From: a virus
Lineage: Duplodnaviria; Heunggongvirae; Uroviricota; Caudoviricetes
IMG/VR virus record: IMGVR_UViG_648276650_000007
Location: 1 to 25,804 of that record
Strand: one strand, 5' to 3'
Length of the DNA stretch: 25,804 bases
Shown here: positions 1 to 20,722 of the stretch, one piece after another
Numbering within the stretch: the first letter of the stretch is position 1
How the letters are laid out: each line of letters begins with the position of its first letter
The notes under the pieces: generated by a model
The model's database searches: none
What the model was told of the DNA's origin: nothing
The model's input: the letters and a program-made list of their open reading frames with translations, nothing else
Translations under genes and position numbers: made by a program

Positions 1-342
1 GACGAAGTAATTTTCAGGGAATATTTCTATGACACACCACCAGAAGGAAAATACAGATGTGTTGGAGAAGATGGACTGCCTGCATGGGCAGATATTCCTC
101 CACCAACACGTGAAGAACAAATTGCATCAGCCGAAACTAAAAAGCAGCAATTGATTAATCAGGCCAACGATTATATGAACAGTAGACAATGGGTTGGTAA
201 AGCGGCTATTGGTCGTCTGAAAGGTGAGGAACTGGCGCAATATAATTTGTGGCTGGATTATCTGGACGCACTGGAGCTGGTCGATACTTCCGGTGCACCA
301 GATATTGAATGGCCTACGCCTCCGGCAGTTCAGGCCAGATGA
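1..342 (+). CDS. tail fibre assembly protein, alternative copy (partial; 5' end upstream of window)
   Basis: Frame 1 is open from base 1 to the stop at 340-342. Translation ends ...ELAQYNLWLDYLDALELVDTSGAPDIEWPTPP, the same C-terminal signature as the convergent gene at 314..916 (...LNAVLDYIDAVTATDTSTAPDVIWPELP). The ORF track lists only 151..342 because it needs a start codon. Confidence 0.6.
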   Translation, partial: DEVIFREYFYDTPPEGKYRCVGEDGLPAWADIPPPTREEQIASAETKKQQLINQANDYMNSRQWVGKAAIGRLKGEELAQYNLWLDYLDALELVDTSGAPDIEWPTPPAVQAR

Positions 343-916
343 CATCCGGCGCGGTGCTGGTATCTGTTGCCGTCACCGCGTCAATGTAATCCAGCACGGC
401 GTTAAGGCGGGTTGTTTCTGCCTGCGTCAGCTTCCGTCCGGCCTGTAATTTCAGTTGAATCAGACTGATGGAGGCCATTGCAGTATCAATCAGCGACTGG
501 CGCTGTGCTTCTGCTGCATCTACTGCTGCGCCGTGCTGTGCCTCAGTATCGGTCACCCATTTCTCACCATCCCATTTATCGTATGGCGTTAACGGGGCGA
601 TAGTGGTTGTATTTTCAGGGTAATCACCCGGAGTTGTGATTTCTTTGGCTTCTCCCGTTTCGGTGTTATAGACGATTTCACCGCGATGGTCTGGCACATA
701 TTCCCATGAGTTAAAATCTGCAGAACGGCAGATAGCATAACCAGCCTTATATGTGCCTGGTGAATCTAAACAGGAATATGCCGGGATACCAACACCAACG
801 GCAAGATATTCATTTGAAGTGGAAATATATTCCCGTATTTCACCATCATAGTTATAGACGGTAATATTCCCTGCCTTCGTGGCAATAATCTCGCTATTTA
901 ATACAGCGTTATCCAT
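314..916 (-). CDS. G: tail fibre assembly protein (P2 G-like chaperone)
   Basis: 200 aa ORF directly downstream of the tail-fibre gene, start overlapping its stop at 916. C-terminal tail-fibre-assembly signature (LDYIDAV...APDVIWPELP). Position matches P2 gene order H-G. Confidence 0.8.
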   Translation of the reverse strand: MDNAVLNSEIIATKAGNITVYNYDGEIREYISTSNEYLAVGVGIPAYSCLDSPGTYKAGYAICRSADFNSWEYVPDHRGEIVYNTETGEAKEITTPGDYPENTTTIAPLTPYDKWDGEKWVTDTEAQHGAAVDAAEAQRQSLIDTAMASISLIQLKLQAGRKLTQAETTRLNAVLDYIDAVTATDTSTAPDVIWPELPEA

Positions 917-10887: not shown

Positions 10888-12654
10888 ATGAACACCACAC
10901 TGACACCCGCAGATCTCGATCCCCGTCGGCAGGCCATGCTGCTGTACTTTCAGGGATACCGCGTAGCCCGCATTGCTGAAATGCTGGGCGAGAAAGTTGC
11001 AACCGTTCACAGCTGGAAAAAACGCGACAAGTGGGGTGACTATGGGCCGCTTGATCAGATGCAGCTCACCACCGCCGCACGCTACTGCCAGCTCATTATG
11101 AAGGAGCACAAAGAAGGGAAAGATTTCAAAGAGATTGACCTGCTGGCGCGCCAGTCGGAGCGCCATGCGCGGATCGGCAAGTTTAACAATGGCGGCAACG
11201 AAGCCGACTTAAACCCTAACGTCGCCAACCGCAACAAAGGCCCGCGCCGTCAGCCGGAAAAGAACGTTTTCACCGATGAACAGATTGAGAAGTTGGAAGA
11301 AATCTTCCATTCCTCCATGTTCAACTACCAGCGCCACTGGTGGGAAGCCGGAAAAACCAACCGCATCCGCAACCTGCTGAAGTCACGCCAGATCGGCGCG
11401 ACCTTCTATTTTGCCCGTGAAGCCCTGATTGACGCCCTGCTAACCGGGCGTAACCAGATTTTCCTTTCCGCCAGCAAGGCTCAGGCCCACGTCTTTAAGC
11501 AGTACATCATCGACTTCGCCAAAGAAGTGGAGGTGGAGCTGAAAGGCGATCCGATGGTGCTTCCTAACGGGGCCACGCTGTACTTCCTCGGCACCAATGC
11601 CCGCACGGCCCAGAGTTACCACGGCAACCTGTATCTGGATGAATATTTCTGGATACCGAAATTCCAGGAGCTGCGCAAAGTGGCTTCCGGTATGGCTATT
11701 CACAAAAAATGGCGACAAACCTATTTTTCCACGCCATCCAGCCTGACACACAGTGCTTATCCGTTCTGGTCCGGTGCGCTGTTCAACCGAGGGCGCAGCA
11801 AAGCCGATAAGGTGGACATCGACCTGTCCCACAGCAATCTGGCCCCCGGCCTGCTGTGCGCAGACGGGCAGTACCGCCAGATAGTCACTGTGGAAGATGC
11901 GGTGCGCGGCGGCTGTAACCTGTTCGACCTCGACCAGTTGCGCATGGAGTACAGCCCGGACGAATACCAGAACCTGCTGATGTGTGAGTTCGTGGACGAT
12001 CTCGCGTCTGTGTTCCCACTCAGCGAGCTGCAGGCGTGCATGGTGGACAGTTGGGAAGTCTGGACCGACTTTCATGCACTGGCCCTGCGCCCGTTTGGCT
12101 GGCGCGAAGTGTGGATCGGATATGACCCGGCGAAAGGTACGCAGAACGGCGACAGCGCCGGATGCGTGGTGGTGGCGCCGCCAGCCGTGCCGGGCGGTAA
12201 GTTCCGCATTCTTGAGCGTCACCAGTGGCGCGGAATGGACTTCCGCGCCCAGGCTGACGCCATCAAAAAACTGACCGAACAGTACAACGTGACCTATATC
12301 GGTATCGACTCAACCGGCGTTGGTCACGGGGTTTACGAGAACGTGAAAGCGTTTTTTCCTGCCGTCCGGGAGTTTGTCTACAACCCCAACGTTAAAAACG
12401 CCCTGGTACTCAAGGCCTACGACATTATCAGCCACCGCCGTCTGGAGTTTGACGCCGGACACACCGACATAGCGCAGTCCTTTATGGCAATCCGTCGCGC
12501 CACCACCGCCAGTGGCAACCGCCCGACCTATGAAGCCAGCCGCAGCGAAGAAGCCAGCCACGCCGATCTGGCCTGGGCAACGATGCACGCACTGTTTAAC
12601 GAACCGCTGCAGGGCGAATCCGCCAATACCAGCAATATTGTGGAGATTTTTTGA
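10888..12654 (+). CDS. P: terminase large (ATPase) subunit P
   Basis: 588 aa, the size of P2 gpP; N-terminus MNTTLTPADLDPRRQAMLLYFQGYRVARIAEMLG is P2 P-like; overlaps the portal start by 4 nt. Confidence 0.9.
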   Translation: MNTTLTPADLDPRRQAMLLYFQGYRVARIAEMLGEKVATVHSWKKRDKWGDYGPLDQMQLTTAARYCQLIMKEHKEGKDFKEIDLLARQSERHARIGKFNNGGNEADLNPNVANRNKGPRRQPEKNVFTDEQIEKLEEIFHSSMFNYQRHWWEAGKTNRIRNLLKSRQIGATFYFAREALIDALLTGRNQIFLSASKAQAHVFKQYIIDFAKEVEVELKGDPMVLPNGATLYFLGTNARTAQSYHGNLYLDEYFWIPKFQELRKVASGMAIHKKWRQTYFSTPSSLTHSAYPFWSGALFNRGRSKADKVDIDLSHSNLAPGLLCADGQYRQIVTVEDAVRGGCNLFDLDQLRMEYSPDEYQNLLMCEFVDDLASVFPLSELQACMVDSWEVWTDFHALALRPFGWREVWIGYDPAKGTQNGDSAGCVVVAPPAVPGGKFRILERHQWRGMDFRAQADAIKKLTEQYNVTYIGIDSTGVGHGVYENVKAFFPAVREFVYNPNVKNALVLKAYDIISHRRLEFDAGHTDIAQSFMAIRRATTASGNRPTYEASRSEEASHADLAWATMHALFNEPLQGESANTSNIVEIF

Positions 12655-13688
12655 TGGGAAAGAGTAAGAAGAACCGCGCTGCGGCGACGAAACAGATCCA
12701 GCTTAAAAGTCAAACTACAGCCGAAGCATTCAGCTTCGGCGATCCCGTTCCTGTTCTGGACCGCCGAGAACTGCTGGATTATGTGGAATGCGTACAGATG
12801 GACCGTTGGTATGAGCCGCCCGTCAGCTTTGACGGACTGGCGCGCACCTTCCGCGCCGCCGTGCATCACAGTTCCCCGATTGCAGTAAAGTGCAACATTC
12901 TGACCAGTACCTATATCCCTCATCCGCTGCTCAGCCAGCAGGCTTTTTCGCGTTTTGTGCAGGACTATCTGGTATTTGGTAACGCCTACCTGGAGAAACG
13001 CACGAACCGATTCGGTGAAGTTATCGCTATTGAGCCTGCGCTTGCAAAATACACCCGACGCGGATTAGACCTGGATACCTACTGGTTTGTGCAATACGGT
13101 ATGACAACCCTGCCGTATCAGTTCACGAAAGGCAGCATTTTTCATCTGATGGAACCGGACATCAACCAGGAGATCTACGGCCTGCCCGGTTATCTTTCTG
13201 CCATTCCGTCAGCCCTGCTCAACGAGTCCGCCACGCTGTTCCGCCGCAAGTATTACATTAACGGTAGCCATGCAGGCTTCATCATGTATATGACCGATGC
13301 CGCGCAGAACCAGGAAGATGTGAACAACCTCCGCAACGCAATGAAAAGCGCCAAAGGCCCTGGCAACTTCCGCAATCTGTTTATGTACTCGCCTAACGGC
13401 AAAAAGGACGGACTTCAGATTATCCCGTTGTCAGAGGTCGCAGCGAAGGATGAGTTTTTGAATATCAAGAACGTGAGTCGGGATGACATGATGGCAGCAC
13501 ATCGTGTGCCGCCGCAAATGATGGGGATTATGCCGAGTAATGTTGGGGGTTTTGGGGATGTGGAGAAAGCCAGCCGCGTCTTTGTTCGCAACGAGTTGAT
13601 ACCTCTGCAGAAGCGCCTTCAGGAATTGAACGACTGGCTTGGAGAAGAAGTCATGCGTTTTGAAGATTATAATTTAGGTATTGAATGA
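12651..13688 (+). CDS. Q: portal protein Q
   Basis: 345 aa, the size of P2 gpQ; co-directional and coupled with P, as in the P2 P-Q operon. Confidence 0.9.
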   Translation: MMGKSKKNRAAATKQIQLKSQTTAEAFSFGDPVPVLDRRELLDYVECVQMDRWYEPPVSFDGLARTFRAAVHHSSPIAVKCNILTSTYIPHPLLSQQAFSRFVQDYLVFGNAYLEKRTNRFGEVIAIEPALAKYTRRGLDLDTYWFVQYGMTTLPYQFTKGSIFHLMEPDINQEIYGLPGYLSAIPSALLNESATLFRRKYYINGSHAGFIMYMTDAAQNQEDVNNLRNAMKSAKGPGNFRNLFMYSPNGKKDGLQIIPLSEVAAKDEFLNIKNVSRDDMMAAHRVPPQMMGIMPSNVGGFGDVEKASRVFVRNELIPLQKRLQELNDWLGEEVMRFEDYNLGIE

Positions 13689-13693
13689 TATTT

Positions 13694-13717
13694 AAAAGCC
13701 TGTACAAACAGGCTTTT
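13694..13717. terminator. intrinsic terminator hairpin between convergent Q and the cargo operon
   Basis: Perfect 10-bp stem AAAAGCCTGT / ACAGGCTTTT with ACAA loop, followed by a T-rich run on the + strand; lies between the Q stop (13688) and the stop of the minus-strand gene at 13758. Confidence 0.6.
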
Positions 13718-13757
13718 ATTCTTTAGTTTAAAATCACCAAGACATGAGCATTAAAAC

Positions 13758-14423
13758 TTAAAGATCCGGATCTACAGGCTCATGATATAGATTTACAGGG
13801 TAATGAATAACTTCATAATTCAGTTGAGTAACTGTGTGAACATGCTGGCTATAAAAAACCAATGGATTTTTTTGACAAGGAGTAATCGTTATAGATTTAC
13901 AGGCATGAATTCTTGGTGCGAATTTATCTAAATGCGCCTTCCAGTTGCTCATCATTTCATTACATTTTCTATTACGAGTATAGATAATCAATCCACCACT
14001 TGCGCTGTCTACGGTCCCTGTACTATATCGTTCAGTGAGTTGAGCATACCCTTTAAATAAATAACTATATGAAGATGTATGTTTTTTGGCTTCGCCATGC
14101 CAAATATAATCCTTTAGTTTTATTGTAATATCACAATGTCCGCGCTGATTATTTTCATGAAATGCTTCAATGTCCATATCTTTATTTTTGATATTGGCCA
14201 ATAAAATTAAAGTAAGCTGATCTTCTGTTAAATCGAAGTTTAACTTATTTGAATTCTCTTCTATTTCCTTTACAGCAGAATCAAGTTCAATCCTGACAAA
14301 TTGTTTGAAATTATCGTACGATTGAAGTGCAAATCTAACACGAGTAATAGAAGCATTAATACGCTGAAGAAAAATATCATTATCAATATCAGCCAAACTC
14401 ATTGCTGCAGACATTTTTAACAT
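13758..14423 (-). CDS. hypothetical protein, cargo gene 3 of 3; possible PD-(D/E)xK-type nuclease
   Basis: 221 aa, AT-rich codon usage unlike the flanking phage genes. Start ATG overlaps the stop of gene 2 (TGATG). Contains EAFHE...GHCDITIKLKDYIWHGEAKK, compatible with an E...D...ExK nuclease core; this is inference from motif spacing only. Confidence 0.65.
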   Translation of the reverse strand: MLKMSAAMSLADIDNDIFLQRINASITRVRFALQSYDNFKQFVRIELDSAVKEIEENSNKLNFDLTEDQLTLILLANIKNKDMDIEAFHENNQRGHCDITIKLKDYIWHGEAKKHTSSYSYLFKGYAQLTERYSTGTVDSASGGLIIYTRNRKCNEMMSNWKAHLDKFAPRIHACKSITITPCQKNPLVFYSQHVHTVTQLNYEVIHYPVNLYHEPVDPDL

Positions 14424-14869
14424 CAGATAATATCCTTTGATTTAGATTCATCTAATGTAAAAAAAGGAAATACGAATGACTTATAGTCATACATAAGCTC
14501 CCCTGTAAATGGGTTTGCTAAAGATTGACTGATTTCCGCCTCAATAACTTCCTCTATTTCAAGTTCTACAGGGTCATGAAAATCATCAATGAACCAATAA
14601 TTGAGTTTTAAAAAATCAACCTTTGGGCTACAAAGAATTTGTATGGCCGGATAGATAACCTGCTCATACGTTTCTGGCTGTAAAACCTTATTATAACCAC
14701 CAGCTATATTAAATAAATCCTTATAACTTAAAGCTATATTTGATGATTTTTTAGCCCTTGCCTCGATTTCATCGTACAAATAGCAAGCTAACGCCCCAAT
14801 TTCAGGGCGTTCTGCACACATTTCTTTGATGATCTTGGGCATATCACCATCCTTCATTGCTGACTCCAA
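14423..14869 (-). CDS. hypothetical protein, cargo gene 2 of 3 (small acidic protein)
   Basis: 148 aa; start is directly adjacent to the gene 1 stop; acidic C-terminal half (DDFHDPVELEIEEVIEAEISQ); no motif I recognise. Confidence 0.6.
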   Translation of the reverse strand: MESAMKDGDMPKIIKEMCAERPEIGALACYLYDEIEARAKKSSNIALSYKDLFNIAGGYNKVLQPETYEQVIYPAIQILCSPKVDFLKLNYWFIDDFHDPVELEIEEVIEAEISQSLANPFTGELMYDYKSFVFPFFTLDESKSKDII

Positions 14870-15976
14870 TTATAATATCAGCTTTGTGAGGGTTTCGAAA
14901 TCATCTTTGGATATACATTTACTTAATATAGCATAGTTAACAGGAGAGCAACTACTCCCTCCTAGATGCCTGCGGAGTGTTCCCGGAATGATAAGCTCTA
15001 CGTTATCCGCTAATTGCAGTTTTGGATTATTTCTATCAACTCTAATTCCAATACGATACAAACCAATACTGCCTACTGCTTTGATGCCTTCCTTATTAAA
15101 CAAATCATCACGTAAGTCTTTAGTGGCCACATTTTTCTTTTCTTTATGCGTAGTCCCCTCATTCGTCAAAAATGACAAATCAAAGACTTTATAGCTTAAT
15201 TTTGAATAAGGCAATGAATTTTGTTTGAAAATTGGCTCAATTAACGGATAAAAATCTTTTTCCGATGATTTAAATTCATAACCGACATGATTATACAATT
15301 CACGAATAATGTTACTCTTTGCAAAAGTAACATTATCACCAATAATATTACCATTAGTATCTACCAAAACATGAATTTTATTAGTAACAGAGTCTAATAT
15401 ACAGACATCAAAACATTGTCGCTTTTCTTTTCGCTTTGCAATAATTTCATCAAACTGCTTGTATTGCGCAAGTGCTGACGGGGGAATTTTTTCTCTTACA
15501 ACTAATTCTCTGACAGATGAAAAAACAAGTATTGACTGGGTGTTTTGAATAGAATAATTAACAAGTTCAGGTTGATTTTTTACAGCATTTTGCAATTGGA
15601 CATCATCAAGGATCGAATCAACCAATAATGATGGTTGATTCATCAAATTCCATTGGAAACTAAATCTGTCATTTAGTGTTTTAATTACACTATTATCTAC
15701 AGTCAAACTAAATATTGCTTTTTCACCATAAACGACCTGACCCAAAATTAGGTCATTTACGTTTGCCATAATGCCATCAAACTTTTGCCTATCTTTACTT
15801 TTAAGATCAATGAGGCTTTCTAGTATTTTTTCGTTTGTTGCTTCACGCCCCCTACCTGTTGGCAGCCCTAAAGACGCAATAATTGGCCTTGCAACGTTCC
15901 ATGTGAAACGTTCAGTTAAGGTCAAGATCGACTTTAACTCAGACTCAGAAAGCACTACTGGGACACTACCTGTCAT
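14870..15976 (-). CDS. hypothetical protein, cargo gene 1 of 3
   Basis: ORF 14870..15985 begins with GTG; the in-frame ATG at 15976 (MTGSVPVV...) is preceded by an AGGTG Shine-Dalgarno-like sequence. ~368 aa; no Walker A or other motif recognised by eye. Confidence 0.65.
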   Translation of the reverse strand: MTGSVPVVLSESELKSILTLTERFTWNVARPIIASLGLPTGRGREATNEKILESLIDLKSKDRQKFDGIMANVNDLILGQVVYGEKAIFSLTVDNSVIKTLNDRFSFQWNLMNQPSLLVDSILDDVQLQNAVKNQPELVNYSIQNTQSILVFSSVRELVVREKIPPSALAQYKQFDEIIAKRKEKRQCFDVCILDSVTNKIHVLVDTNGNIIGDNVTFAKSNIIRELYNHVGYEFKSSEKDFYPLIEPIFKQNSLPYSKLSYKVFDLSFLTNEGTTHKEKKNVATKDLRDDLFNKEGIKAVGSIGLYRIGIRVDRNNPKLQLADNVELIIPGTLRRHLGGSSCSPVNYAILSKCISKDDFETLTKLIL

Positions 15977-16125
15977 AACTTGCACCTAGTCATCCAAAAA
16001 GCAATAAGAATTTGCTCTTGTCTTAATTTATCCTTCGATACCTAACAAATTACCTCAATGTTGAAAAAATTTGCAAGCCATTTGCTTCTAAAAAGCGACC
16101 TTACTCAGAGTGTTACAAAACTAAG

Positions 16126-16139
16126 CGAGCGCGCGCTCG
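16126..16139. repeat. perfect 14-bp GC-rich palindrome CGAGCGCGCGCTCG
   Basis: Read directly from the sequence; lies in the non-coding GC-rich island between the AT-rich cargo operon and the lipoprotein genes, abutting the cos-like motif. Confidence 0.85.
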
Positions 16140-16154
16140 TATCCCCGCCACGCC
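16136..16154 (-). other. candidate cos (cohesive end) site
   Basis: Minus strand reads GGCGTGGCGGGGATACGAG. The first 13 nt match the 19-nt cohesive end I recall for phage 186 (GGCGTGGCGGGGAAAGCAT) and 12 of 13 match P2 (GGCGAGGCGGGGAAAGCAC). Orientation is correct relative to Q (5' end of the motif points toward Q). Depends on my memory of the cos sequences. Confidence 0.3.
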
Positions 16155-16634
16155 TGCCCGCTTTATGTAGTAGTTTTCATGCACCTGCATGACATGAGCA
16201 AAAGCCCGCCAGTTCTGGCATGTCTTAGCCAAACCGATCCTCAAACGATCATGCGAACTCATGCAGCATAGACATGCATGACATGAAAATCGGTCAAACC
16301 TTGAAACCAGTCATAAATATGAGCCAGCTTAATACACACTAAATAGCTGCGTCTAATACTGCTACACCTGCCGTTTACTGACATGTGGCATGTCGCGTAA
16401 GGACAACATACTGTAGGCCAGATACAGCAGGATCAGGCGAAGAAAACGGCCCCACGCCTTACCCAGCAAGAGCCAAGGGCCAAGGGCTAACCGAAAGTGG
16501 AACATTATTCCGCGCAGTTATTTAGTGTCAGCTCTTTTGAGCTAAAATCAAGTTTCAACATGAGGGTCTGTGCAGGCTTTCTCATCCCGCTAATTTATAC
16601 AGCACACCTATATGGCTATGAGTTTGTCATGCCC

Positions 16635-16667
16635 GCTAATCCTGTTAGGATTAGCCTTGTTTTTTTA
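16635..16667 (+). terminator. intrinsic-terminator-like hairpin 17 nt upstream of the lipoprotein start
   Basis: 8-bp stem GCTAATCC / GGATTAGC, loop TGTTA, followed by CTTGTTTTTTT. Confidence 0.5.
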
Positions 16668-16683
16668 CGATTGGGATAGGGAT

Positions 16684-17490
16684 ATGAAGAAATTAACTGG
16701 CGTAATTGCTTTTGCTCTGCTGCTTACTGCTTGTGACAAACCGAAGATCGATGCATCAAGCGATCAGTCGATGAAAGAGTCCATTCAAAAAGTAAGAGAG
16801 TCCTTACCTGCAGATAAAAAAGCTCAGTTTGATGATGCAGTTAAAGTCGTTGCCTTTAGCCAAATCAACATGAGAGAGCTAATGCAGGCTGGAACGTCTT
16901 CTGGGGACGTCTACGAAACAAAAATTAAGTCAGCGTTGGAAGGTAAAACTGGTGATGAGGTTATAAATTACGCACAAACTATTCGCCTTGAGCGTGAGAA
17001 GAGAGAGAAAGAACAGGCTCTGCAAGAAATAAAAGAACTGGAAGCCAAACAAACCTCTGCAACACAGGCTGCGGAAAAAATGAAAGCCTTCAAGGTCGAA
17101 CGTTCCCGTTTTTATTTCCAGAAAGAGGATTACGGCAATGATCAGCCAATTCTGGATATTAGCGTTGAAAACGGAACAGACAAAGCGGTTGCCAGAGTAT
17201 TCTTCAAAGGAGTTATTGCCAGCCCAGGAAGAAGCGTCCCTTGGTTCTCTGACGTCTTCAACTATAAAATTTCTGGAGGTCTGGAACCAGGTGAGAAAGC
17301 CAACTGGAAATTAGCCCCTAATAGATACTCTGATTGGGGAAAACTTAAAGTTCCGGCTGATGCTATATTTACCGTCACAGTCATTGGCCTTGAAGACGCA
17401 GATGGGAAATCGATCTATGGTGACGCCGAGTTTTCAGAACGCGATGCTGACAGACTGAATCAACTTAGAGATAAGTACCTTTCTAAATAA
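16684..17490 (+). CDS. hypothetical lipoprotein
   Basis: ORF 16612..17490; start placed at Met25 (MKKLTGVIAFALLLTACDKPK) because of the signal peptide with lipobox LLTAC and the hairpin covering the upstream part; ~268 aa mature protein with a Lys/Glu-rich coiled-coil-like middle. Confidence 0.7.
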   Translation: MKKLTGVIAFALLLTACDKPKIDASSDQSMKESIQKVRESLPADKKAQFDDAVKVVAFSQINMRELMQAGTSSGDVYETKIKSALEGKTGDEVINYAQTIRLEREKREKEQALQEIKELEAKQTSATQAAEKMKAFKVERSRFYFQKEDYGNDQPILDISVENGTDKAVARVFFKGVIASPGRSVPWFSDVFNYKISGGLEPGEKANWKLAPNRYSDWGKLKVPADAIFTVTVIGLEDADGKSIYGDAEFSERDADRLNQLRDKYLSK

Positions 17491-17598: not shown

Positions 17599-17898
17599 AT
17601 GAAACGTATAACTTTCTCCTTTACGTTAGTAGCAATCATCATAGCCTTAGCTGGATGTGCTTTGCCAGATAAAGACGGCGACTTCGGAGCTTATGTTCAT
17701 GCCTGTCAGCAATATGCATACGGAAAATCCTATGCCTTTGAGAATAGAGACTTCGCGTATAAGGTCTGTAAGGACGCGGCGAAACTGTGGAGTGACGAAG
17801 TTCCTGGCTATATCATCAGGCAAATTCAACTACATCCTGAAATACCCAGCGAAGAAATTAAATATGCAGCCATGGCCGGCTCTTTGGGGAACAACTAA
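17599..17898 (+). CDS. hypothetical small lipoprotein
   Basis: 99 aa; signal peptide with lipobox IALAGC; co-directional with the preceding lipoprotein gene. Confidence 0.6.
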   Translation: MKRITFSFTLVAIIIALAGCALPDKDGDFGAYVHACQQYAYGKSYAFENRDFAYKVCKDAAKLWSDEVPGYIIRQIQLHPEIPSEEIKYAAMAGSLGNN

Positions 17899-17965: not shown

Positions 17966-18256
17966 TCAACTGATTACATCCATCGACCTACTGTATTCAT
18001 GGCTTCGAATTTTCGCCATCAACTCATCAGTCAATTCAGAAACCCACTGCAGAGCTAGCCCCTTCTCTTCATCACTACACTCACTAGCCGCTACAAGCTT
18101 AAGAAAAAAATCAATGCGCTGGAGCTTCAAAGACTCCAAAAAATAGTCCTGCATCTTTCCTCCTATAACACCATACGCAATACTGTACATATAACCACTG
18201 TTTATATTTACAGTATATAATAATCTTACTGATGTAAAACGTTTTTTTACGTTCAT
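17966..18256 (-). CDS. hypothetical protein downstream of replication gene A
   Basis: 96 aa AT-rich ORF; no recognisable motif; start uncertain. Confidence 0.3.
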   Translation of the reverse strand: MNVKKRFTSVRLLYTVNINSGYMYSIAYGVIGGKMQDYFLESLKLQRIDFFLKLVAASECSDEEKGLALQWVSELTDELMAKIRSHEYSRSMDVIS

Positions 18257-18307: not shown

Positions 18308-20722
18308 TTAATACATGTTCCGCCACTTATCATCTTCCTGCAAACGCTGGTTCCGATAGAAGATACGCAGGCCTGCTCCTGACGGAATACTGCCACCGCA
18401 AAGGAGCAAATCGACCTCTTTCTCGCTGCCATCAAATCCTCTGGACTTCAGTTCATAGACGAGCTGCTGACGCTGATACTCTGTAATTCGCTGTTTGTAG
18501 TCTTTACGCCGTTTCGGTTTAACCAGGCGCAATCTTGCTGCCAGTTCCCGGCGCTCTTTTTTGCTCATACTGTGCAGGTAATCGTGCAATTCCTTGTCAT
18601 CCATGCAGGTAATGTCCGTTCTGGTATCCCCATCTGCTGATTCATCTTTCTCATGTTGGTTCAAATTTTCAGCAAGGGGACAGTTATTGCCACGAGTCCA
18701 AGGGGCGCAAGCGCCCTGGTCGGCTGCCGCCTCCTGAACGTCAACGGCCTTACGAACCATTTTCCACTTCACTGCATGAGTGCAGATCTTGCCCTCTGCA
18801 ATGGGTGACCAGATGCCATAAATACGAATACCGTGATCGCCATAGGCGGTTGGCTCTTCGTTGATTTCATAAGCGGTTCTGATGAGGTGATATTTGCGGG
18901 GAACCAGTACGCCGCCCTGCTTCATGATGTAGGTGGCAAAACAACCAGCATCAGCAGCAGCCAGAATGGCATCAAGACGCGGGTTATCCAGTACCGGCGC
19001 ACCTGCTTTTTTGTCACCCTGTTGCCTTGCCGCCTGACCAGCCAGCAAGCGAAGTTCACGGTAAGCCTGACGTCCCGGAATACCAAAGAAGCGGAATTGC
19101 TGAACACGATGCAGAGACGCCCAGGCATTAACGTATTCAGCGTTATCACGCAGGGATTTACCCGTTTCCTTGCTGATCTCGCCAGCCAGACCACGCCCGT
19201 CAATGTTCTTACTGATGTATTTCGCGATGTAGCTTGTCGGCGTTCCTTTGCGCGGGTTTATCAGCTCAGATTTAAAGCGTGGACCAGTGTTATTACCCAG
19301 TTCCTCGCGGTCTTCACGGATGGCAAACTTACGCAACAATGCAGTAATGGCGCGGCGGTCTTTTTTGCGCATGAAACACAACAGGTGCCAGTGAACTGTA
19401 CCGTCATGATGCGGCTCAGCCACCCGCACGCCATACCAGCGCAACCCGGCTTTGTGTATCGCCTTACGAAATGCAGCAAACATGCCGACCAGATAATCGC
19501 TGCTTTGTCTTACCGTCGCATTTGTCCAGGTTGGGTTTGGTCTGCCGTTATTGAGCGTGGAATGGAAACGTGACGGACAGGTAATGGTGTAGAAAACGGC
19601 GCAGTCACCGCGCATTTCCGCGATAAGCTCCAGACCTTTAACACAGGCCATCATCTCATTGCGGCGGTGCGCCGGGTTGCTGCTGCTGGCGTTTACCACG
19701 TCTTCCATATCCAGCGTGTCGCCCTCTTCGTTCACCAGTTCATGAGAACGGAAAAACTCCAGTGACTTGCGGCGCTGCTCACGTTTATGCATCACGGCTT
19801 CATAGCTGACATAGGGAGATGCTTTTTTGCTGACCAGGCAGACAGCACGCAACTGCTCTTCCCGCCATTCGCAACGCATTTTCCATAATTTCCGGTACCA
19901 CCAGTCGGCGCACAACATACGCGCCAGCGAACCCGGAATGAGTTCATAGGGCACGGGTTTACGGCGGTTTCTTTTCCGACGGAGTTGCTCAAACGCAGGC
20001 GGGATGACATCCAGACGCAGGGTTTCCGCTGCCACCTTTTCCCATGTCTTGCGGATTTCTTCTGGCTTAACGTCATCGGTGGCATACAAATCACCACAAG
20101 CTGCATCAAGGCACATGCTCATATGCGCAGCGACAAGGGTAGACAGGCGTTTCACCTGATCCTGACTCATTTCAGGCAGAATCAGCAGGCCGTCCAGCCC
20201 TACATGGCTTGCCATAAAACGAAAAGATGCAGATAGCTGGCTGTCGCGTACATGCTCCAGTCGTTCCAGACATGGCTTAATCGTCTCACGTAAATAGCGG
20301 GAATAAGCCTTTGGCCTGCCCAAGCTGCTGAAGTATTCAATACGTTGCATCAGCGGCTTGCTGATATGGGAGGGCTGGGCGCTGACGTCTGCCAGAATGA
20401 CCATGTCCGGGTTAAAACGCTGCTGCTCATGCGCCAACTTTGCCCGGCTAATGAGCTTATCCTGCTCTATTTCGCGTTGGACAGGATCACGGGATTCATT
20501 AAAGAAATAACGCTCCCAGACCTGATCACTCAGTGCCTCGCGGCGCAGTTGTTCCTGCTCGTTATCGGCAGCGTACAGAGTGATCAGGTTTGAAAGCGCA
20601 GAAACCGGCGCAACTTCCGCCGGGTCCAGATAAGGGTTAATGGCCTTTTTCGGGCTGTTCCATGAGAACGATGCGGCAGCCTCGTTAAAGCCGCAGCAGT
20701 TGCTCATATCGGCATGGCTCAT
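18308..20722 (-). CDS. A: replication initiation endonuclease (P2 A / rolling-circle HUH family)
   Basis: 804 aa; HUH-like motif TVHWHLLCF and two-tyrosine motif [11 protein letters not shown]; size and position match P2 gene A; ATGA overlap with the upstream methylase stop. Confidence 0.9.

What the first reader, a model, noticed from the sequence alone, without database searches (positions are those of the whole stretch)
14870..15976. Largest cassette protein (~368 aa) has no motif recognisable by eye
No Walker A, HUH, HEPN-like Rx4-6H or nucleotidyltransferase signature is visible. It is the first gene of the operon and the most likely sensor or scaffold component. A protein of this size with no readable signature in a defence-cargo position is where new families tend to be found.
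Basis: inference. Interest (0 to 1): 0.6.

Follow-up and report, generated by a model that had tools for sequence, protein, structure and literature searches.

The report
RdgC-fold protein of prophage nuclease cassette
The 368-residue protein is a real, conserved member of an undescribed family whose predicted shape resembles the DNA-encircling protein RdgC, and it always travels with a small acidic protein and a restriction-enzyme-like nuclease on phages, satellites and plasmids, so it is probably the DNA-sensing part of an untested anti-phage system.

Summary
Window 14870-15976 (minus strand) encodes a real 368-aa protein, the first and largest gene of a low-GC three-gene operon. The operon lies between the cos site and the portal gene of a 186/P2-like E. 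coli prophage. The protein matches nothing in Pfam, NCBIfam, PADLOC or PDB sequences, and only an unknown-function PHROG.

The family has at least 427 clusters at 50% identity. In 56 of 56 loci with enough DNA, gene 1 is followed by the same acidic ~140-aa protein and a ~215-aa PD-(D/E)xK nuclease (BamHI/OkrAI-like fold, invariant D98, E111, K113). Hosts include P2-like and Stx1 lambdoid phages, a P4-like satellite and plasmids.

The cassette is listed, untested, as "System #91" in Rousset et al. 2022. It is not Rst_3HP.

The best reading is a DNA-binding sensor or scaffold that controls a nuclease effector in an uncharacterised defence system. The function is inferred, not shown.

The parts
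14870..15976 (-). Gene 1, 368 aa (WP_000148121.1), pI 8.5. It is the founding member in this window of an undescribed family (PHROG 12777).
   Evidence: ORF and start codon. No Pfam, NCBIfam, PADLOC or PDB-sequence hit. Family size. AF2 model with pLDDT 86 and pTM 0.84. dN/dS 0.13.
15728..15976 (-). Gene 1 residues 1-83: an N-terminal bundle of four helices carrying the conserved R23, W26, G43, T47 and K50. It is weakly SAP/HeH-like.
14873..15727 (-). Gene 1 residues 84-368: an alpha/beta body. This is where I place the RdgC-like fold, because the N-terminal bundle matches other structures; the tools did not report which residues aligned. Family-wide conserved residues are K86, Q187, D190, D206, E279, R289, D/E291, N/H294, G297, E327, G332, C354 and D359.
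14423..14857 (-). Gene 2, 144 aa from the ATG at 14857 (148 aa if the TTG at 14869 is used). It is acidic (pI 4.4, net charge -12), with a conserved C-terminal HP-x-TGE...P(F/Y)F motif. Its role is unknown; an adaptor or inhibitor is my guess.
   Evidence: No family or PDB hit. Present between gene 1 and gene 3 in all loci.
13758..14423 (-). Gene 3, 221 aa: a predicted PD-(D/E)xK (restriction-endonuclease fold) nuclease and the presumed effector. Its start codon overlaps the gene 2 stop codon by one base (TGATG).
14085..14132 (-). Codons for the putative catalytic residues of gene 3: D98 (14132-14130) and E111-A-K113 (14093-14085).
   Evidence: Invariant in 36 of 36 sequences. The motif is retained in the 35%-identical copy in L003. 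Codon positions read.
13693..13718 (.). An 11-bp-stem hairpin between the converging portal gene and gene 3. It is flanked by A and T runs and is probably a bidirectional terminator ending the operon.
   Evidence: sequence.
15977..16135 (-). AT-rich leader and probable promoter region of the operon, including the AGGTG ribosome-binding site at 15987-15983. No strong sigma-70 match was found.
   Evidence: Sequence. The promoter scan found nothing convincing here.
16136..16154 (-). A P2/186-type cos-like sequence, GGCGTGGCGGGGATACGAG. The cassette therefore lies between cos and the portal gene.
   Evidence: Read. It resembles the cos region in the cloned P2-hotspot sequences of Rousset Table S2A. 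My remembered 186 cos 19-mer did not match within 3 mismatches, so this is an inference.

Best explanation
Gene 1 encodes the DNA-binding subunit of a conserved, horizontally mobile three-gene nuclease system that most likely defends the lysogen against other phages.

Shown:
- The protein is real and under purifying selection.
- It belongs to a large undescribed family.
- Its confident model combines an N-terminal helical bundle with a body that has the RdgC fold.
- It is always followed by the same small acidic protein and the same PD-(D/E)xK nuclease.
- The trio rides in accessory slots of phages, satellites and plasmids.

Inferred:
- Like RdgC, and like lambda RexA, which shares that fold class, the gene 1 protein dimerises and clamps or binds DNA non-specifically.
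- It recognises a DNA state created by an infecting phage, such as free ends or replication or recombination intermediates.
- With the acidic gene 2 protein as adaptor or brake, it releases or positions the gene 3 nuclease to cut DNA. This stops the phage directly or by killing the cell.
For: Family and reality of the gene:
-.

Fold:
- AF2 model with pLDDT 86.2 and pTM 0.84.
- Gene 1 is mildly basic (pI 8.5).

Effector:
- The gene 3 model (pLDDT 89.6) matches BamHI-class restriction enzymes, McrC, HamA and CdiA-CT nuclease.
- D98, E111 and K113 are invariant.

Obligate association:
- Genes 1, 2 and 3 occur in the same order and on the same strand in 56 of 56 loci with enough downstream DNA, down to 22-26% identity in gene 1.
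- Genes 2 and 3 are translationally coupled.

Defence-type context:
- The P2 gpA-portal hotspot (PMC9122126).
- A P4-like satellite.
- Beside PRTase-CE and NADAR genes.
- Beside ApeA.
- Beside HerA, a NurA-like protein and a methylase.
- Between Q and stx1A in Stx1 phages.
- One of two cargo modules on a 6.1-kb plasmid.
- Among TA and RES modules on a Leclercia plasmid.
- Patchy distribution: 20 and 23 of 5426 E. coli genomes, and 4 of 185,579 species representatives.
Against: - No experiment exists for this cassette. It is listed but untested in Rousset 2022. It is absent from the DefensePredictor supplements.
- Dimerisation, ring formation and DNA binding could not be tested.
- The family-wide conserved residues of gene 1 are largely acidic or polar (D190, D206, E279, E327, D359). 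That looks more like a catalytic or partner-binding site than a DNA-binding pore.
- PADLOC holds no model for any of the three proteins, including its defence-island-derived candidates. No earlier island-enrichment screen therefore flagged them.
- Several distant loci sit beside ordinary metabolic genes.
Confidence: 0.5

Rival explanations
1. Addiction or toxin-antitoxin module. Gene 3 is a nuclease toxin. The acidic gene 2 protein is its antitoxin, possibly a DNA mimic. Gene 1 is a DNA-binding regulator or third component, as in tripartite TA systems. The cassette would mainly stabilise the phage or plasmid that carries it.
For: - Genes 2 and 3 overlap by one base, and the upstream partner is acidic.
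- The trio is one of only two cargo modules on a 6.1-kb Col-type plasmid. The other is a RelE/NadS TA pair.
- It sits among VapBC, ParDE and RES modules on a Leclercia plasmid.
- There is no methyltransferase to protect self DNA from a BamHI-fold nuclease.
Against: - A 368-aa partner conserved 56 of 56 times is atypical for a plain TA pair.
- Gene 1 has no HTH or other regulator signature.
- Many TA-like modules in these same hotspots are in fact defence systems, so this reading overlaps with the main one rather than excluding it.
Confidence: 0.15
2. Modification-dependent (type IV-like) restriction. Gene 1 recognises modified or otherwise foreign DNA and recruits the gene 3 nuclease, in the manner of McrB and McrC but without an NTPase.
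For: - There is no cognate methylase in any locus.
- Gene 1 has DNA-binding-type folds.
Against: - No known modified-base reader domain (SRA, YTH, PUA, DUF3578-type) was detected by sequence or fold.
- There is no GTPase or ATPase motor.
- This reading does not explain the role of gene 2.
Confidence: 0.12
3. Not immunity. The cassette would be an accessory DNA-metabolism or lifecycle module of the mobile element. Examples are an RdgC-like modulator of RecA or SOS, a modulator of the lysis-lysogeny switch (as RexA is for lambda), or a DNA-processing nuclease.
For: - RdgC inhibits RecA functions, and RexA biases the lambda switch (PMC11077077).
- The cassette lies next to cos and the packaging genes.
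Against: - The same trio occurs in unrelated element types with different replication and packaging systems: P2-like, lambdoid, P4-like, Col and large plasmids, and islands.
- It is present in under 1% of E. coli genomes.
- It is swapped for other cargo in otherwise near-identical prophages (PMC9122126). That is the behaviour of accessory cargo, not of a lifecycle function.
Confidence: 0.1
4. Gene 1 is itself an enzyme rather than a passive sensor. It would use the conserved D190, D206, E279, R289, H/N294 and E327 cluster, for example as a second nuclease or a nucleotide-processing enzyme, on an RdgC-like scaffold.
For: These charged residues are the best conserved in the family, at 88-100% over 63 diverse sequences. 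RdgC itself has no such catalytic set (my own knowledge of the RdgC literature, not checked here).
Confidence: 0.13

Closest known systems
RdgC (E. coli recombination-associated, nucleoid-associated protein; PDB 2OWL/2OWY; Pfam RdgC)
   Different: - There is no sequence relationship: no Pfam hit, no PDB-sequence hit, and hhalign probability 0.5%.
- Gene 1 has an extra 83-residue N-terminal helical domain.
- Gene 1 is carried on mobile elements in an operon with a nuclease.
- RdgC is a single chromosomal housekeeping gene. In K-12 it lies at b0393, well away from any such cassette.
Lambda RexA of the RexAB exclusion system
   Same: RexA is prophage-encoded and is the first gene of an exclusion operon. 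[quoted passage not shown] It is the closest functional analogy for an RdgC-fold protein acting as a sensor in phage exclusion.
   Different: - No sequence similarity (hhalign probability 0.2%).
- No RexA-type hit in PADLOC.
- The partners here are an acidic protein and a PD-(D/E)xK nuclease, not the RexB membrane protein.
Rst_3HP ('hp + hp + hp', Rousset et al. 2022), a validated three-gene system from the same P2 hotspot
   Same: It also consists of three proteins without recognised domains, of broadly similar sizes (333, 359 and 227 aa). It occupies the same hotspot of P2-like prophages and protects against P1.
   Different: The proteins are unrelated.
- The PADLOC Hp1, Hp2 and Hp3 models recognise their own proteins at E below 1e-150, but none of this trio or its distant versions.
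- BLASTP and hhalign comparisons are negative.
Nuclease-effector defence systems with a separate DNA-sensing partner (McrBC, Hachiman HamAB, Shedu)
   Different: This trio has no GTPase, helicase or other NTPase. No PADLOC model for these systems is matched. The sensor fold is different.
BamHI/OkrAI/BstYI/BglII type II restriction endonucleases (for gene 3)
   Different: Sequence identity is below 10% and there is no Pfam hit. No methyltransferase partner occurs in any locus. Gene 3 has an extra N-terminal helical region (residues 10-76).

Membership tests
RdgC family (Pfam RdgC) | Significant match to the family's sequence profile | tested here: not met
   No RdgC hit in Pfam for the window protein or for 63 diverse relatives. 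No PDB-sequence hit with a single sequence or a profile at E up to 10. hhalign of the family profile against E. coli RdgC gives probability 0.5%.
RdgC family (Pfam RdgC) | RdgC three-dimensional fold (centre, base and tip domains) | tested here: met
RdgC family (Pfam RdgC) | Ring-shaped homodimer with a basic pore that binds DNA | not testable with these tools
   No multimer prediction, model coordinates or electrostatics were available. The only related figure is pI 8.5.
Lambda RexAB exclusion system | RexA-like protein paired with a RexB-like polytopic membrane protein | tested here: not met
   Genes 2 and 3 are an acidic protein and a PD-(D/E)xK-fold protein with no similarity to RexB. Membrane helices were not predicted. 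hhalign against RexA gives probability 0.2%. No Rex model in PADLOC is hit.
Rst_3HP (Rousset 2022) | Homology to Hp1, Hp2 and Hp3 | tested here: not met
   The PADLOC Hp1-3 models score E 1e-157 to 1e-248 on their own proteins and nothing on this trio. BLASTP of gene 1 against Hp2 is negative, as are hhalign of the gene 3 profile against Hp1 and the gene 1 profile against Hp2.
Any defence system modelled in PADLOC-DB v2.0.0 | Match to at least one component HMM | tested here: not met
   There were no matches for the three window proteins at E up to 1. For 63 gene 1 relatives and for the Stx1-phage and metagenomic versions only scattered single matches at E 0.001 or weaker appeared, which I treat as noise. 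Later DefenseFinder or PADLOC releases could not be queried.
PD-(D/E)xK nuclease superfamily (gene 3) | Restriction-endonuclease core fold | tested here: met
PD-(D/E)xK nuclease superfamily (gene 3) | Conserved acidic-acidic-lysine catalytic motif (D ... D/E-x-K) | tested here: met
   D98 and E111-A-K113 are invariant in 36 sequences and are kept in distant copies. They lie on strands 99-103 and 106-115 of the model. Catalysis itself is untested.
Anti-phage defence system (general) | Experimentally shown protection against phage | not testable with these tools
   No test was found. The cassette is absent from Rousset's tables of tested systems: parts 1-2 were read, and a search for its sequence strings returned hits only in file 6, the untested loci list. 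Its accession numbers occur in no searchable paper text and not in the DefensePredictor supplements.
Anti-phage defence system (general) | Location in known defence hotspots or next to known defence genes, with patchy distribution | tested here: met
   - P2 hotspot and a P4-like satellite.
- Neighbours include ApeA, PRTase-CE/NADAR, HerA/NurA/methylase, RES and TA modules.
- Present in under 1% of E. coli genomes.
- No quantitative enrichment statistic was computed.

The most novel reading that the evidence does not exclude
The trio would be a new family of anti-phage systems. In it, an RdgC/RexA-fold DNA clamp, not an NTPase, helicase or nucleotide-signalling enzyme, senses phage DNA or replication and recombination intermediates. 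It then licenses a BamHI-fold nuclease, with a dedicated acidic subunit as the safety catch. This would make the RdgC fold a recurrent immune sensor module shared with lambda Rex. It would also place an uncharacterised immunity cassette next to stx1 in Shiga-toxin phages.
Probability: 0.35. Interest if true: 0.72.

Novelty: new variant of a known kind. Interest (0 to 1): 0.6.

Why it matters
If the reading is right, there are four consequences.

- It adds a defence system whose three proteins have no described relatives. The system is spread over P2-like, P4-like and lambdoid (Stx1) phages, plasmids and islands, in hosts with GC content from 35% to 65%.
- It gives the first indication that the RdgC fold is reused as a sensor in phage exclusion beyond lambda RexA. 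That offers a tractable soluble model, sensor plus nuclease, for a question open since the 1950s: what Rex-type systems actually detect.
- It predicts a restriction-fold nuclease that is kept safe without a methylase.
- The E. coli cassette is small (2.3 kb) with a native promoter region, so all of this can be tested directly.

If the reading is wrong, the cassette is still a conserved mobile nuclease module of unknown purpose in clinical E. coli, Salmonella and Klebsiella.

Tried and rejected
**Sequence-family assignment failed for all three proteins.**
- Pfam, NCBIfam and PADLOC gave nothing, and PHROGs gave only unknown-function families.
- PDB sequence searches with single sequences and with profiles were empty.
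- The weak hits do not recur across relatives, so I disregard them: DUF7628 at E 0.045, Rep3_C at E 2e-4 to 3e-3 on the gene 3 N-terminal helices, and SduA_C in one relative.

**Identity with Rst_3HP is rejected**.

**Sequence-level homology to RdgC or RexA is rejected**.

**A HEPN reading of RELYNH (225-230) is rejected.** The motif is not conserved.

**There is no Rfam RNA in or around the cassette**, so a retron or other RNA-guided reading has no support.

**Searches that returned little or nothing:**
- The search for related loci with the broad alignments failed for lack of a conserved peptide.
- The genome-collection scan with the close alignment returned only 4 loci.
- A second word-index search with the broad alignment recovered almost only close relatives.
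- My remembered 186 cos 19-mer did not match within 3 mismatches, so the cos assignment rests on resemblance only.

**The promoter scan found no convincing sigma-70 site upstream of gene 1**.

**Literature searches found no characterisation.** I searched for the accession numbers, RdgC-like defence proteins, DefensePredictor, the 2026 P2/P4 hotspot paper, the hotspot-annotation preprint, the modularity preprint and Stx1 phage cargo.

- structure of gene 2;
- AFDB or viral fold search for gene 1;
- any multimer model.

Full report
**1. What is there**

The window is almost a complete 186/P2-like prophage of E. coli, running from the tail fibre genes to the integrase. It is identical over the cassette to prophages in strains ECONIH4 and C 236-04A. 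Between the portal gene (12651-13688, plus strand) and the replication endonuclease gene (18308-20722, minus strand) lies a block of 0.34 GC in a 0.56 GC background.

Three genes on the minus strand fill the part of this block nearest the portal gene:
- Gene 1 is 14870-15976 (368 aa).
- Gene 2 is 14423-14857 (144 aa).
- Gene 3 is 13758-14423 (221 aa).

Gene 1 starts at an ATG preceded by AGGTG. Gene 2 follows after 12 bases. The start of gene 3 overlaps the stop of gene 2 by one base. A strong hairpin at 13693-13718 ends the unit. A P2/186-type cos-like sequence lies just upstream at about 16136-16154, so the cassette sits between cos and the portal gene. This last point is read and is an inference.

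Motif scans confirm the absence of Walker A, HUH, nucleotidyltransferase, HNH and CxxC signatures. The single R-x4-H match (RELYNH, 225-230) is not conserved in relatives and is chance.

**2. Gene 1 is a real gene in an undescribed family**

None of the three proteins matches Pfam, NCBIfam or PADLOC. PHROGs places them in three unknown-function families. PDB sequence searches, with a single sequence and with a profile, are empty. Every public name for the three proteins is 'hypothetical', apart from one stray 'ZinT' label on gene 3.

A word-index search finds 40 close clusters, nearly all in Enterobacterales. An exhaustive profile search of 1.8 billion representatives finds 427 clusters at E up to 0.001 and 232 at E up to 1e-10. 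Almost all are full-length proteins of 340-380 aa, with no informative domain fusions. Sixty-three diverse members also lack any Pfam or PADLOC match.

Between the two E. coli alleles, which share 85% DNA identity, dN/dS is 0.13 for gene 1, 0.14 for gene 2 and 0.065 for gene 3.

**3. The fold**

With the 37-sequence alignment, AlphaFold2 gives a confident model with pLDDT 86.2 and pTM 0.84. Residues 1-83 form four helices. The rest is an alpha/beta body.

At the sequence level there is no link to RdgC or RexA (hhalign probabilities 0.5% and 0.2%). Gene 1 is therefore not a member of either family. It only shares their architecture.

The best conserved residues across the wide family are K86, Q187, D190, D206, E279, R289, D/E291, N/H294, G297, E327, G332, C354 and D359. 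This largely acidic set is unexplained. It could be an interface or an active site.

**4. The partners**

Gene 2 is acidic, with pI 4.4 and net charge -12. It has a conserved C-terminal motif and matches nothing known.

**5.

I built profile HMMs for the three genes and searched six-frame ORFs of every locus fetched. The loci came from:
- E. coli genomes;
- contigs encoding relatives from the large protein collection;
- species-representative genomes;
- JGI metagenomes;
- IMG/VR viral contigs;
- GenBank phages;
- PLSDB plasmids.

In 56 of 56 loci with enough DNA downstream, gene 1 is followed on the same strand by gene 2 and then gene 3. Three further loci end too early to tell. This holds down to 22-26% identity in gene 1 and across loci with GC content from 0.35 to 0.65. 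Gene 1 is disrupted in four loci: L009, L020, L024 and L025.

**6. Where the trio lives**

- The gpA-portal hotspot of P2-like prophages in Escherichia, Plesiomonas and Rosenbergiella. The flank assignments in the last two genera rest on ORF sizes only. Members of the same 90% clusters occur in Salmonella and Klebsiella, and Klebsiella phage KP12 carries a 62%-identical gene 1; their contexts were not examined.
- A P4-like satellite in Providencia, with the order integrase, primase, trio, Psu, Ogr/Delta.
- Beside PRTase-CE and NADAR genes next to a P2 portal remnant in Serratia.
- Beside ApeA and IS elements.
- Beside HerA, a NurA-like protein and a methylase; beside an integrase; beside a tape-measure gene; beside a plasmid RepA.
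- Between the antiterminator Q and stx1A in seven Stx1a-converting lambdoid phages and 23 E. coli genomes.
- On a 6.1-kb Col-type mobilisable Klebsiella plasmid, where it is one of only two cargo modules.
- On a Leclercia plasmid among RES, VapBC and ParDE modules.

It is rare and patchy. The P2-type trio is in 20 of 5426 complete E. coli genomes, and 4 of 185,579 species representatives carry it. This is the distribution of accessory cargo such as defence or addiction modules, not of a lifecycle gene.

**7. What the literature says**

Rousset et al. 2022 defined this P2 locus as a defence hotspot (PMC9122126).
- Their Table S5A lists exactly WP_000148121 + WP_001324710 + WP_016239485.
- Their Table S5B lists the trio as System #91, with no Pfam domain and 36 occurrences.
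- It is not among the systems they cloned. Parts 1-2 of Table S2 were read, and a search for its sequence strings returned hits only in file 6, the untested loci list.

Their validated 'hp+hp+hp' system (Rst_3HP) is a different trio. The PADLOC Hp1-3 models recognise it but not ours, and direct comparisons are negative.

The accession numbers appear in no searchable paper text and not in the DefensePredictor supplements. The 2026 P2/P4 hotspot study validated only P4 loci with other compositions. I found no paper linking an RdgC-like protein to a nuclease-based defence system.

**8. Mechanism**

My best-supported reading has a confidence of about 0.5 as a whole. Gene 1 makes a DNA-binding dimer of the RdgC/RexA type. 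It detects a DNA state produced by an infecting phage. Together with the acidic gene 2 protein, it gates the gene 3 nuclease.

The following are shown:
- the predicted folds;
- the catalytic motif;
- the obligate synteny;
- the translational coupling;
- the mobile, hotspot-type contexts.

The following are inferred:
- DNA binding and oligomeric state;
- what is sensed;
- the direction of control;
- the defence phenotype itself.

The rival readings are listed separately with their tests. They are a tripartite addiction module, a type IV-like restriction complex, a non-immune DNA-metabolism accessory, and gene 1 as an enzyme. The first two overlap with 'defence' rather than excluding it.

**9. 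Verdict**

The protein is neither ordinary nor an artefact. It is an uncharacterised family with a now-assignable fold, inside a conserved mobile nuclease cassette that has been catalogued but never tested.

I rate it a new variant of a known kind: a hotspot-borne system that pairs a sensor with a nuclease effector, built from undescribed parts. I score interest at 0.6.

Noticed in passing
L028 4854-6961 (Stx1a-converting phage Stx1_499, LC567825.1); also 23 E. coli genomes: A distant version of the same trio (gene 1 22.5% identical; proteins of 350, 130 and 221 aa) sits between the antiterminator Q and stx1A in seven Stx1a-converting lambdoid phages, on the opposite strand to stx. Strain TUM9812 carries both this version and the P2-type version.
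   Followed up: partly
L029 (K. pneumoniae plasmid pRGF99-1, 6115 bp) 48-2186: On this small Col-type mobilisable plasmid the trio is the only cargo apart from a RelE/NadS toxin-antitoxin pair. The gene 1 homologue there is not in the annotation table that was returned. That table is known to be incomplete.
   Followed up: partly
window 16136-16154 (minus strand): A P2/186-type cos-like sequence, GGCGTGGCGGGGATACGAG, lies upstream of gene 1. It splits the hotspot cargo into two parts: the trio on the portal side and the lipoprotein genes on the gpA side. The trio would then sit at one end of the packaged linear genome.
   Followed up: partly
window 16612-17490, 17599-17898 and 17966-18256: There is a second cargo cluster on the other side of cos. 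It holds a DUF6694 family lipoprotein, a 99-aa protein that I judge lipoprotein-like from its N-terminal sequence, and a small minus-strand ORF. In strain ECONIH4 the DUF6694 gene is split by an IS1 insertion. In the window it is intact.
   Followed up: no
L009 8040-9100; L020; L024 1730-3987; L025: Gene 1 is frameshifted or interrupted in four loci, while genes 2 and 3 remain readable where the DNA extends that far. The loci are Klebsiella sp. I138 and three metagenomic contigs. In L024 about 1.2 kb is inserted in the gene. This may be decay or assembly error.
   Followed up: no
window 14857-14869: The start of gene 2 is ambiguous. A TTG directly after the gene 1 stop codon gives 148 aa. The ATG at 14857, with GGAG upstream, gives 144 aa. 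One RefSeq record calls a 139-aa version (WP_001124161).
   Followed up: partly
window 13758-14423 (gene 3): One UniRef entry in the gene 3 cluster is named 'Metal-binding protein ZinT'. This looks like an annotation error, since neither the fold nor the sequence supports it.
   Followed up: no
L017 2-5845: In one metagenomic contig a four-gene set lies directly upstream of the distant trio. It comprises a HerA-like ATPase, a NurA-like protein, a DNA methylase and an unknown 404-aa protein, and may be another defence module.
   Followed up: no
L005 4836-6474 (Serratia ureilytica): A PRTase-CE gene and a NADAR gene lie immediately upstream of the trio, next to a P2 portal remnant. They are another likely cargo pair in the same hotspot.
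   Followed up: no
window 127-916: Two tail-fibre assembly genes face each other at the left end of the window. In ECONIH4 a recombinase family gene lies about 0.8 kb beyond them. This is the usual invertible tail-fibre segment of P2-like phages and is ordinary.
   Followed up: no
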